Assembly (NCBI GenBank): GCA_964632315.1
Contig: CAZWEM010000003.1
Coordinates: 73,823-137,822, forward strand
Direction of reading: 5' to 3'
Source of the DNA: an uncultured archaeon
GTDB lineage: Archaea > Asgardarchaeota > Lokiarchaeia > Sigyniarchaeales > SOKP01
Length of the DNA: 64,000 bases
Under the pieces are notes generated by a model. It made no database searches, had not been told where the DNA came from, and was given only the letters and a program-made list of their open reading frames with translations. The position numbers and the translations under genes are program-made. Position 1 is the stretch's first letter, and each line of letters begins with the position of its first letter. This document shows, one piece after another, positions 26,578 through 27,504 of this stretch.

Positions 26578-26731
26578 TACTTCTTAAATTTAAATTAAAA
26601 TCATCAATAAATTCATTTTCTATATTCATAATCTCTAGTATTCACTAACCTTTTATCCTCAATTGAACTCTTTCTTTATAATGGACAAAAAAAAGTTCAA
26701 AATAAGAATCTGATTATATGAATGAAAAATC

Positions 26732-26749
26732 TAAAAAAAAGAAAAAAAA
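26732..26749 (-). terminator. Oligo-T tract downstream of the histone gene
   Basis: A T-run on the minus strand about 30 nt after the stop; archaeal-type terminator candidate. Confidence 0.45.
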
Positions 26750-26779
26750 TTAGTTTTTAAATATCTGGTTATTTTCCAT

Positions 26780-27057
26780 TTATTTATACTTAATCGCCAG
26801 TAGGAGATCGTTTTTGGTAATTTATATAAGAAATCCTTGAAATAAGAAATTCTTTTTACGATTAGCATGCATGGTAAAAGCTCGTGCTTGTTCGGTTAAT
26901 CCAGATGCTGTTTTTTCAAGATGGTCAATTAAAAGATCCACTGCATTTCTGGCTACGATGCTTGCACCTTGCTGCTTCATTAATCTCCTTATTGGCGACC
27001 AGGCAAAACTCCACTCAGAGTCGATTTGACCCTTGATCTATGTTTCTTTTTAGCCAT
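26780..27057 (-). CDS. Archaeal histone (HMf-like fold, 72 aa after removing two putative introns); exons 27057-27038, 27008-26854, 26823-26780
   Basis: GGAGGA RBS before ATG 27057. Spliced product: MAKKKHSFAWSPIRRLMKQQGASIVARNAVDLLIDHLEKTASGLTEQARAFTMHANRKKITKNDLLLAIKYK. Has the alpha1 PIRRLMK and HA.RK.I...D histone motifs. Absent from the ORF track. Confidence 0.88.
26824..26853 (-). other. Putative BHB-type intron 2 (30 nt) in the histone gene
   Basis: AGAAUUUCUUAUUUCAAGGAUUUCUUAUAU. Central helix GUAA/UUAU; bulges AA^A and AU^A; intron stem GAAUUUCUU/AAGGAUUUC; exon stem UAAU/AUUA. Removal deletes the in-frame TAA and restores RKKIT. Confidence 0.8.
27009..27037 (-). other. Putative BHB-type intron 1 (29 nt) in the histone gene
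   Basis: AUCAAGGGUCAAAUCGACUCUGAGUGGAG. Intron stem UCA-A-GGGUC/GACUC-UGA; bulges AG^A and AG^U; central helix ACAU/GUGG (3 pairs plus A.G). Removal fixes the frameshift. Confidence 0.72.
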
Positions 27058-27504
27058 GGTCTATTCCTCCACAATTATAAATTTATAATTCGAGTATTTT
27101 TACTTTTTTTTGGTTTATTAGTAAAGTTTCTTAGATAATATAATATCCGAACGATTATTTAAATGTTTTGGCAATATCAGAAGAACTTGAGGGATTAAAT
27201 GAATAAAAAATCACGACAAAAAGTTAATGTTTTGATTAAAGGATAATCATCCGTGATCATGGAAAGGAAGATCACATGAAGAATTCGAATCCAATTTTTT
27301 AGAATCAAAATAATTCGGATGGTCAAGTTGAGAAAAAGAGGCTTAATATAGGTTTTATTATGGTTTAAAGGGGAATTAAAAAAATTTTTATCAATGCAAC
27401 TCATCATCATTCAATGTCGTGAGATCCATCCCACGATCATAAGGTCTTAGTCATGAGGTAATTAAGTGGGAAAAAATAATCTTATTCTAGTGGTATGATA
27501 TGGG

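What the first reader, a model, noticed from the sequence alone, without database searches (positions are those of the whole stretch)
26989..27070. Histone intron 1: relaxed BHB next to a helix that sequesters the start codon
The intron stem UCA-A-GGGUC/GACUC-UGA (loop AAAUC), bulges AGA and AGU, and central helix ACAU/GUGG (one A.G mismatch) form a relaxed BHB. Flanking sequence can pair GACCA-U-GGC with GCC-UGGUC, covering the AUG. The unspliced message encodes only a basic 22-aa peptide, MAKKKHRSRVKSTLSGVLPGRQ*. Both introns are about 30 nt, have 5-nt A..UC loops and contain UCAAGG, which hints at a common origin; that could be chance. A relaxed motif predicts an EndA with broad specificity.
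Basis: partly seen in the sequence, partly recalled or inferred. Interest (0 to 1): 0.72.

Follow-up and report, generated by a model that had tools for sequence, protein, structure and literature searches.

The report
tRNA-type mini-intron in Asgard histone gene
A histone gene of a Loki-type (Asgard) archaeon is broken 20 bases after its start codon by a 29-base insert shaped like a tRNA intron, and about 80 related genes show that it must be cut out of the mRNA, a kind of splicing that the papers I could search report inside only one archaeal protein-coding sequence (cbf5).

Summary
On the minus strand, a 72-codon archaeal histone gene (26780-27057) is interrupted at 27009-27037 by a 29-nt insert. 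Fifty-five orthologues lack exactly these bases and read MAKKKH-SFAWSP. Eight of 161 genomes of the class and 21 metagenome contigs carry the insert (22 distinct versions, 28 or 29 nt).

The insert and its flanks fold as hBHBh'. Seven base pairs show compensatory changes. The central helix has 3 of 4 pairs in this window and 4 of 4 in 6 of 22 versions. In eight versions, only a cut between the 2nd and 3rd nucleotide of each bulge restores the conserved Ser codon.

The genome encodes an (alpha-beta)2 EndA with the specificity-loop lysine, and RtcB.

The helix over the start codon is real and tracks the intron, and exon third positions near the intron are almost frozen. But the helix persists in the spliced mRNA model and is missing in two intron-bearing variants. 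I read it as an exon clamp, not a shown switch.

A common origin with intron 2 is not supported.

No RNA-level evidence was obtainable. Earlier notes of this scan report the same kind of mini-intron at intron 2 of this gene and in other genes of this genome.

The parts
27066..27070 (-). Shine-Dalgarno-like GGAGG, 9-13 nt before the ATG
   Evidence: Read directly. Invariant in all orthologues of the genus, with or without the intron.
27038..27057 (-). Exon 1, coding part: ATG plus 17 nt (MAKKKH and the first two bases, AG, of the Ser codon)
   Evidence: Intronless orthologues read ATGGCNAARAARAARCAY followed directly by the Ser codon and TTYGCNTGG. No column varies among the 7 intron-bearing genomes of the genus.
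27009..27037 (-). Intron 1, 29 nt. 5' cut between 27038 and 27037 (AG|A); 3' cut between 27009 and 27008 (AG|U)
   Evidence: Exactly absent from 55 orthologues. Present at the same site in 8 of 161 genomes and 21 metagenome contigs. Removing it gives MAKKKHSFAWSP in all. Among the 7 genomes of the genus, 15 of 29 columns vary, against 1 of 58 in the flanks.
27015..27036 (-). Intron hairpin h' (3 bp, bulged A at 27033, 5 bp) with loop AAAUC at 27023-27027
   Evidence: Six of its 8 pairs show compensatory changes across 22 variants, and 93% of cells are paired. The loop is NNNUC, closed by an invariant C-G.
27040..27043 (-). Central helix H, exon strand ACAU. Pairs with GUGG of the intron at 27011-27014
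   Evidence: Pairs C-G, A-U and U-G (or C-G) are kept in 22 of 22 variants. The fourth position is A.G here, A-U in 5 variants and G-C in 1 (exon AAG with intron C).
27011..27014 (-). Central helix H, intron strand GUGG
   Evidence: GUG is invariant although non-coding, while the neighbouring loop positions vary.
27037..27039 (-). 5' bulge B1 (A, G | A). The cut falls after its 2nd nucleotide
   Evidence: Geometry. The cleavage rule (between the 2nd and 3rd bulge residue) is quoted from PMC2738675.
27008..27010 (-). 3' bulge B2 (A, G | U). The cut falls after its 2nd nucleotide
   Evidence: In 8 of 22 variants B2 reads AAU or AUU. Only the cut after the 2nd nucleotide rebuilds AGU (Ser), the residue in 54 of 55 intronless orthologues. 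Other placements would give Asn or Ile.
27044..27046 (-). Outer helix h, 5' strand GAA. Pairs with UUU at 27005-27007
   Evidence: 100% of cells paired in 22 variants, G-U or A-U at the first pair. The 3' strand was fixed by the metagenome search pattern.
27053..27061 (-). Clamp helix, 5' strand GACCA-U-GGC, containing the start codon
   Evidence: At least 7 of 8 pairs in 8 of 8 intron-bearing genomes, against 2 of 55 intronless ones, none with 8 of 8. GACC or GACU is upstream in 18 of 22 variants, AAAA in 2 and AAUU in 2.
26997..27004 (-). Clamp helix, 3' strand GCC-UGGUC (codons Ala9, Trp10 and the first two bases of Ser11 of the spliced gene)
   Evidence: The Ala codon is GCC in 8 of 8 intron-bearing genomes against 5 of 55 intronless ones. 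G142 has GCC where the other genomes of its genus have GCA, GCG or GCT.
26852..27008 (-). Exon 2 (157 nt): last base of the Ser codon through ...HANRKK, the body of the histone fold
   Evidence: PF00808 at 27.3 bits (cut-off 21.4), profile positions 6-54. 85-100% identical to orthologues in 23 genomes of the genus.
26822..26851 (-). Intron 2 (30 nt, in frame, ends in TAA; placement uncertain by about 1 nt). Not analysed in depth here
   Evidence: Absent from most orthologues, which read RKK-ITKNDL. Inserts of about 30-34 nt with unrelated sequences sit at the same site in G004, G042 and G142. Hairpin with loop AUUUC.
26780..26821 (-). Exon 3: ITKNDLLLAIKYK plus the stop codon
   Evidence: An intronless orthologue two residues different from the predicted product covers PF00808 positions 6-64 of 65 in one stretch.
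26733..26749 (-). Two runs of eight T after the gene, terminator-like
   Evidence: Read directly. Similar T runs follow the orthologues. Function is inferred.

Best explanation
Window 27009-27037 (minus strand) is a bulge-helix-bulge (tRNA-type) mini-intron in the pre-mRNA of an archaeal histone gene. The transcript folds so that exon 1 pairs with exon 2 through GAA/UUU, GGC/GCC and GACCA/UGGUC. The last full codons of exon 1 (ACAU) pair with the 3' end of the intron (GUGG). The rest of the intron forms a hairpin. This presents two 3-nt bulges on opposite strands, four (here three plus an A.G) pairs apart. The heterotetrameric (alpha-beta)2 splicing endonuclease of this organism cuts after the second nucleotide of each bulge (AG|A and AG|U). 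RtcB joins the exons and rebuilds an AGU Ser codon. Once intron 2 is removed in the same way, the mRNA encodes a 72-residue histone, MAKKKHSFAWSPIRR... Shown here: exact absence of the insert in orthologues, conservation and covariation of the fold, the splice site fixed by the conserved Ser, nucleotide-level constraint on the flanking exons, and the presence of the enzymes. Inferred: the cleavage and the ligation themselves. The helix that includes the AUG most likely serves as a clamp that substitutes for the tRNA anticodon stem and holds the weak A/U-rich outer helix together. Any effect on translation is unproven.
For: Exact absence and presence: 55 orthologues go straight from CAY to the Ser codon. 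Eight of 161 genomes of the class (7 of 42 in the genus, 1 of 54 in a second genus) and 21 metagenome contigs carry 28 or 29 extra nt at the same site. Fold: on 22 distinct variants 93.2% of cells pair, 7 pairs and 30 cells have changes on both sides, 0 of 500 shuffles reach this, and slid controls give 24-46%. Six of 22 variants have a fully canonical 4-bp central helix, including a G-C made by an exon synonymous change plus an intron change. Splice site: in 8 variants only the cut between bulge nucleotides 2 and 3 restores Ser. That is the rule stated for cbf5 (PMC2738675), and it fits this genome's own tRNA-Ser(UGA) intron. Not coding: lengths of 28 and 29 nt put the unspliced RNA in different frames. 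Among genomes of the genus, intron columns vary in 15 of 29 against 1 of 58 in the flanks, Fisher p = 4e-8. Exon constraint: mean third-position difference is 0.020 in codons 1-17 against 0.257 in codons 18-59 in intron-bearing genes, and 0.357 against 0.377 in intronless ones. Enzymes: EndA alpha (Tyr148, His156, Lys187; Lys65 aligned to the loop K44 of A. pernix), a beta paralogue with Ser in place of His, and RtcB at 568 bits. PMC5829648 reports (alpha-beta)2 EndA with the L1 loop in Asgard archaea. Context: the only uS8 gene of this genome is likewise split by a hairpin insert of about 29 nt with a frame change.
Against: There is no RNA-level evidence. In this window the motif is relaxed (A.G in the central helix), and a recent preprint warns that relaxed BHB-like motifs arise often by chance. 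The nearest-neighbour optimum is a register-shifted fold, not the BHB. The metagenome variants were retrieved with a pattern that fixed CAYAG and TTTTGCCTGG, so invariance of those columns is partly by construction. Related sequences are not independent, which inflates the Fisher and shuffle figures.
Confidence: 0.87

Rival explanations
1. The gene is expressed without splicing. The upstream ORF gives a 22-aa basic peptide, and the histone is made from the internal ATG (MKQQG...) behind AAGGAG, or the gene is a decaying pseudogene.
For: AAGGAG lies 5 nt before the internal ATG in this window and in the main intron-bearing clade. Gene callers would find only this 52-aa ORF.
Against: Exon 1 and the codons for SFAWSPIRRL are conserved at the protein level and nearly frozen at the nucleotide level in intron-bearing genes, which a dead or untranslated segment would not be. 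Several intron-bearing variants have AGACGG or AGAAGG instead of AGGAG, and many intronless ones have AGGAG. Starting at MKQQG would drop the residues that match positions 6-11 of the histone profile. A second insert with a stop codon would still truncate the fold. There is no intact second copy; the nearest paralogue is 62% identical.
Confidence: 0.05
2. The ribosome deals with the insert by translational recoding, either a frameshift within it or a hop over it, rather than by RNA splicing.
For: The insert changes frame by +2 and contains a stable hairpin, features also seen at recoding sites (general knowledge; no tool result supports this directly).
Against: A frameshift would add about 10 residues that should then evolve as codons. 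Instead, changes come in base-paired couples, and the length varies between 28 and 29 nt, which would need different shifts. A hop needs matching take-off and landing codons, and none flank the insert. In 8 variants the codon after the insert would read Asn or Ile rather than the conserved Ser unless the junction is made inside the codon, at the BHB cut sites. Intron 2, with different lengths and sequences in different species, would need a second unrelated recoding event.
Confidence: 0.03
3. The insert is a sequencing or assembly artefact, or a strain-specific lesion of one MAG.
For: MAG assemblies can carry indels. This genome is rated 8.6% contaminated.
Against: The same insert, with 22 distinct sequences and compensatory changes, is found in 8 genomes and 21 independent metagenome contigs.
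Confidence: 0.01
4. It is a real intron, but it is removed by something other than EndA and RtcB, for example another structure-specific RNase plus a ligase.
For: Cleavage was not observed. The loop NNNUC with an invariant C-G closing pair is conserved beyond what the BHB rule requires, which hints at an additional recognition element.
Against: Geometry, cut positions and enzyme repertoire all fit the EndA pathway, and no other pathway for such inserts is known in archaea.
Confidence: 0.04

Closest known systems
BHB intron in the cbf5 (pseudouridine synthase) pre-mRNA of Crenarchaeota (Watanabe 2002; Yoshinari 2006; Yokobori 2009, PMC2738675)
   Same: A short insert (cbf5: 16-44 bp) inside a coding sequence. 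The BHB is often relaxed. Cut sites lie between the 2nd and 3rd bulge residues. It depends on a heterotetrameric EndA with the Crenarchaea-specific loop. It is patchily present among relatives, implying gain and loss.
   Different: The gene (histone) and the phylum (Asgard) differ, and there is no sequence relationship. The intron lies 20 nt after the start codon, so the exon-exon helix includes the start codon and 5' UTR. The gene carries a second intron. cbf5 splicing is backed by experiments according to PMC2738675, whereas here there is only comparative evidence.
Archaeal pre-tRNA BHB introns, including this genome's tRNA-Ser(UGA) (genome contig C10:64436-64538)
   Same: The orientation of the motif is the same: exon helix, 3' bulge, 4-bp helix of exon and intron strands, 5' bulge, intron hairpin. 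The 5' bulge reads AG|N. The length lies in the range of Asgard tRNA introns, median 22-23 nt.
   Different: No tRNA body or anticodon stem supports the motif. A helix built from 5' UTR, start codon and codons 9-11 takes that place, and exon synonymous sites are frozen to keep it.
BHB intron in the 5' UTR of HVO_1309 mRNA, Haloferax volcanii (PMC7714728)
   Same: An mRNA substrate of the tRNA splicing endonuclease close to the translation start.
   Different: That intron is 46 nt, lies wholly in the UTR and does not interrupt the reading frame. It was found as a circular RNA and cleaved in vitro.

Membership tests
Archaeal BHB (EndA-spliced) intron | [quoted passage not shown] | tested here: met
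   Bulges AGA and AGU lie four positions apart. The central helix has 3 of 4 pairs (A.G at one end) in this window and in 16 of 22 variants, and 4 of 4 pairs in 6 of 22. So the motif is met in relaxed form here and in strict form in relatives.
Archaeal BHB (EndA-spliced) intron | Flanking helices h (exon-exon) and h' (intron) | tested here: met
   h is 3 bp, extended by GGC/GCC and GACCA/UGGUC. h' is 8 bp with one bulge. Six pairs of h' covary.
Archaeal BHB (EndA-spliced) intron | Cuts between the 2nd and 3rd bulge nucleotides give the functional junction | tested here: met
   Only this placement rebuilds the conserved Ser codon in 8 variants whose 3' bulge reads AAU or AUU. The rule is quoted from PMC2738675.
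Archaeal BHB (EndA-spliced) intron | Insert exactly absent from orthologues, with the exons otherwise intact and conserved | tested here: met
   55 intronless orthologues. Close intronless relatives (G006, G023, contig L085) have the predicted junction CACAG-TTTTGCC.
Archaeal BHB (EndA-spliced) intron | The host encodes a splicing endonuclease able to cut relaxed motifs outside a tRNA, and an RtcB ligase | tested here: met
   Two EndA paralogues. Alpha is closest to the A. pernix catalytic subunit and has Tyr/His/Lys and the loop lysine. Beta has Ser at the His position. RtcB scores 568 bits. This rests on sequence only. The literature reports the (alpha-beta)2 type with the L1 loop in Asgard archaea.
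Archaeal BHB (EndA-spliced) intron | Spliced RNA, excised (circular) intron or in vitro cleavage observed | not testable with these tools
   No transcript data were reachable.
Archaeal histone (PF00808, CBFD_NFYB_HMF) | Histone-fold profile match above the curated cut-off over the whole fold | tested here: met
   Exon 2 alone scores 27.3 bits (cut-off 21.4), profile positions 6-54. An intronless orthologue two residues different from the predicted product scores 33.9 bits over positions 6-64 of 65.

The most novel reading that the evidence does not exclude
The intron and the helix that buries the AUG form a splicing-coupled gate on histone synthesis. The ribosome and EndA compete for the same 60 nt, because the BHB strands lie at +12 to +18 of the coding sequence, inside the footprint of an initiating ribosome. 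The clamp keeps ribosomes off until the endonuclease has cut. Histone output would then depend on the activity of the tRNA-splicing machinery, an Asgard example of mRNA splicing used as a regulatory step rather than tolerated as a parasite. The frozen synonymous sites up to codon 25 and the invariant UC in the loop would be parts of this device.
Probability: 0.12. Interest if true: 0.88.

Novelty: new member of a known kind. Interest (0 to 1): 0.74.

Why it matters
In the papers I could search, endonuclease-type splicing inside an archaeal coding sequence is reported for cbf5 only. None mentions protein-gene introns in Asgard archaea or in histone genes.

Here a chromatin protein gene in the archaeal group closest to eukaryotes needs two such splicing events. 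The comparative evidence is unusually complete: exact presence or absence, covariation, a splice site fixed by a conserved codon, and selection on exon nucleotides to keep the fold.

It shows how an mRNA can supply the scaffold that the tRNA body normally gives. It predicts a short, cheap in vitro substrate. It also warns that gene callers report such genes as truncated or missing; here they would call a 52-aa fragment.

Together with the split uS8 gene checked here, and the other cases noted by this scan, it points to a lineage in which mRNA splicing by the tRNA machinery is routine.

Tried and rejected
- Rfam scan of 26600-27300 at permissive E-value: nothing relevant.
- nhmmer profile of the 22 intron variants against the whole genome: only the intron itself (E = 1e-7; next hit E = 0.84). 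So it is not a repeated or mobile sequence family, and intron 2 is not detectably related.
- Shared UCAAGG as a sign of common origin: 7.8% of shuffles share a 6-mer, and the hexamer is not conserved in relatives.
- Search for spliced transcripts. The metagenome pattern allowed a gap of 0-30 nt. The two gap-free hits are intronless genomic relatives with different upstream DNA, not cDNA of intron-bearing strains.
- ARAGORN intron coordinates are unreliable in this genome: 30 tRNAs, 19 called with introns, and a class II tRNA-Ser(UGA) called Ala. I used only one hand-checked example.
- Longer fold of 151 nt to explain the frozen codons 12-25: no significant structure, z = -0.11.
- The gene tree of 123 nt is too short to settle one gain with losses against several gains or transfer. 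Well-supported branches force at least 2 events, and the ML tree needs 5.
- Exact BHB placement of intron 2 was tried by hand and left unresolved.
- Frameshift, hopping, artefact and pseudogene readings were rejected as given under the rival explanations.

Full report
**What is there.** On the minus strand a gene starts at 27057 (ATG, nine bases after GGAGG) and ends with TAA at 26780-26782.
- Read straight through, it gives only a 22-residue peptide.
- A second frame holds a clear archaeal histone fold (PF00808, 27.3 bits, profile positions 6-54). This frame then runs into a 30-nt in-frame insert with a stop codon before the last 13 codons.

**Orthologues decide the nature of the insert.** A six-frame search with exon 2 found one close orthologue in nearly every genome of the genus and in the neighbouring genera.
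- In 55 of them the sequence runs ATGGCNAARAARAARCAY, then a Ser codon, then TTYGCNTGG, giving MAKKKH-SFAWSPIRR.
- Pattern searches over 161 genomes of the class found extra bases at that point in eight: seven of 42 in the window's genus and one of 54 in a second genus. The insert is 29 nt in every case.
- One scan of metagenome contigs added 21 carriers, 14 of them new sequences. Three new sequences have a 28-nt insert in which the bulged A of the hairpin, or a neighbour, is missing.
- Removing coding positions 21-49 gives MAKKKHSFAWSP in all eight genomes.
- The segment is therefore not an in-frame tail and not a one-base error.
- An intronless orthologue two residues different from the predicted product covers the histone profile from 6 to 64 of 65 in one stretch.

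**The fold.**
- clamp GACCA/UGGUC and GGC/GCC;
- outer helix GAA/UUU;
- 3' bulge;
- central helix ACAU/GUGG;
- 5' bulge;
- intron hairpin.

On eight genome sequences 95% of cells pair and three pairs covary. RNAalifold recovers the hairpin, three central pairs and the clamp without being told. On 22 distinct sequences the results are as follows:
- 93.2% of cells pair.
- Seven pairs and 30 cells have changes on both sides.
- No shuffle of 500 reaches the observed pairing or covariation.
- Sliding the partners by one to three columns drops pairing to 24-46%.

Six of the eight hairpin pairs covary. The fourth pair of the central helix is A.G in this window. It is A-U in five variants. In one variant it is G-C, made by a synonymous AAA-to-AAG change in the exon together with a C in the intron. 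So the motif is relaxed here and strictly canonical in 6 of 22 relatives.

A preprint on Asgard tRNA introns warns that relaxed motifs are common by chance. I therefore shuffled the 29 nt with the exons fixed. A central helix of at least 3 of 4 pairs plus an adjoining intron helix of at least 3 pairs at the exact boundary arises in 0.4% of shuffles.

The nearest-neighbour optimum is a register-shifted fold with a 3x3 loop. The BHB conformer lies about 4 kcal/mol higher. I do not count that against it, because the enzyme selects the bulged form. This last point is inference.

**The splice sites.** In this window AG follows both junctions, so three placements give the same mRNA.
- In eight variants the 3' bulge reads AAU or AUU. 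There only the cut after the second nucleotide of each bulge rebuilds AGU.
- Ser is the residue at this position in 54 of 55 intronless orthologues. The other placements would give Asn or Ile.
- This is the rule stated for the cbf5 introns.
- It also fits this genome's own tRNA-Ser(UGA). ARAGORN mislabels that gene as Ala. Its class II variable arm and anticodon loop come out right only with cuts at AG|U and CA|A.
- In window coordinates the cuts fall between 27038 and 27037 and between 27009 and 27008.

**The insert is not coding, but its exon flanks are constrained as RNA.**
- Among the seven genomes of the genus, 15 of 29 intron columns vary, against 1 of 58 flanking columns.
- Mean third-position difference among six full-length intron-bearing genes is 0.020 in codons 1-17 and 0.257 in codons 18-59. 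In 19 intronless genes of the same genus it is 0.357 and 0.377.
- A recent sweep cannot explain frozen exons around a diverged intron.
- The clamp helix tracks the intron. At least 7 of 8 pairs form in 8 of 8 intron-bearing genomes, against 2 of 55 intronless ones.
- The Ala codon is GCC in 8 of 8 intron-bearing genomes, against 5 of 55 intronless ones.
- The carrier from the second genus has GCC where the other sampled genomes of its genus have GCA, GCG or GCT.
- These counts come from related genomes. They amount to about two independent lineages, so they are suggestive rather than a proper test.

**The start-codon helix.** It is real. However, the A and G of the AUG are as fully paired in the model of the spliced mRNA as in the pre-mRNA, where a hairpin of -11.4 kcal/mol remains. 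Two intron-bearing metagenome variants have AAAAA upstream and cannot form its outer half. I therefore read it as a clamp that replaces the anticodon stem and supports a weak A/U outer helix. I do not read it as a demonstrated splicing-dependent mask. The gate idea is kept as the novel case.

**Enzymes.** The genome has two EndA paralogues of about 205 residues, each with both Pfam domains.
- One is closest to the catalytic subunit of the Aeropyrum pernix heterotetramer. It keeps Tyr148, His156 and Lys187, and has Lys65 aligned with K44 of the Crenarchaea-specific loop.
- The other has Ser at the catalytic His position.
- This is the (alpha-beta)2 type with the L1 loop that the literature reports for Asgard archaea and links to cleavage of relaxed motifs.
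- RtcB is present.

**Other readings.**
- An artefact is excluded by 29 independent assemblies.
- A pseudogene or an internal start at MKQQG does not fit the conserved and frozen 5' exon sequences. The AGGAG before the internal ATG is absent from several intron-bearing variants and present in many intronless genes.
- Frameshifting or hopping does not fit the paired substitutions, the 28/29-nt length difference, the lack of matching take-off and landing codons, or the Ser codon rebuilt across the junction.

**Common origin of the two introns.** This is not supported.
- UCAAGG is replaced by UCAAGA, UUAAUA, UCAUUA and others in relatives.
- A shared 6-mer occurs in 7.8% of shuffles.
- A profile of intron 1 finds nothing else in the genome.
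- Intron 2 has unrelated sequences of about 30-34 nt in four species.
- What the two do share is a hairpin loop ending in UC. This is unexplained.

**History.** A 123-nt gene tree needs five changes of state, and well-supported branches force at least two. The carrier from the second genus groups with intron-bearing genes, although its upstream DNA is typical of its own genus. The data do not separate an old intron with many losses from spread by recombination.

**Context and literature.**
- The only uS8 gene of this genome is also split by a hairpin insert of about 29 nt with a frame change.
- Earlier notes of this scan list further cases in this genome, and intron 2 of this gene. I treat those as leads.
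- The papers I could search report BHB introns in mRNA only for cbf5 (coding) and HVO_1309 (5' UTR). I found nothing on Asgard protein genes or histones.

**Verdict.** This is a well-supported new member of the cbf5-type class of endonuclease-spliced mRNA introns. RNA-level proof is still missing.

Noticed in passing
window 26822-26851 (minus); L036, L037, L043: Intron 2 of the same histone gene sits between RKK and ITKNDL. It is present in four of the eight intron-1 carriers among the genomes (G000, G004, G042, G142), with unrelated sequences of about 30-34 nt. Some are in frame with a stop codon and one changes the frame. I could not fix its BHB register by hand.
   Followed up: partly
genome contig C35:14222-14622 (minus), outside the window: The only uS8 (Ribosomal_S8) gene is split between ...QQYAYIGEI and FERYDDGRTGKF... 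by an insert of about 29 nt that forms a 7-bp hairpin and shifts the frame. So an essential single-copy gene appears to need the same kind of splicing.
   Followed up: partly
window 27023-27028 and alignment A2, first-sequence positions 46 and 50-52: The intron-1 hairpin loop is always NNNUC, closed by an invariant C-G, in 22 of 22 variants, while the rest of the stem covaries. Intron-2 loops in four species also end in UC. The uS8 intron loop does not. This may be an extra recognition element or a trace of origin.
   Followed up: no
window about 26983-27057 (codons 1-25 of the spliced gene): In intron-bearing genes synonymous sites are almost invariant up to about codon 25, some 42 nt beyond the end of the clamp helix. 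A 151-nt fold gives no significant extra structure (z = -0.11).
   Followed up: partly
L043/L048 (G142, second genus): This carrier has upstream DNA typical of its own genus. It has an AG|U Ser codon where the other sampled genomes of its genus use UCN, a GCC Ala codon and both introns. Its exon 2 groups with the intron-bearing genes of the window's genus. This hints at recombination that carried the introns.
   Followed up: partly
whole genome; example genome contig C10:64436-64538: ARAGORN finds only 30 tRNA genes, 19 with introns, several with implausible intron calls. It labels a class II tRNA-Ser(UGA) with a canonical BHB intron as tRNA-Ala. The tRNA set of this genome is heavily interrupted and poorly captured by standard tools, as a 2026 preprint reports for Asgard archaea.
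   Followed up: partly
L086 and L089 (metagenome contigs LAZR01001309.1 and SDBS01042807.1), and L097: These are 28-nt versions of intron 1. L086 and L089 also lack the upstream half of the clamp helix (AAAAA before the ATG). The intron therefore survives without that part of the helix.
   Followed up: partly
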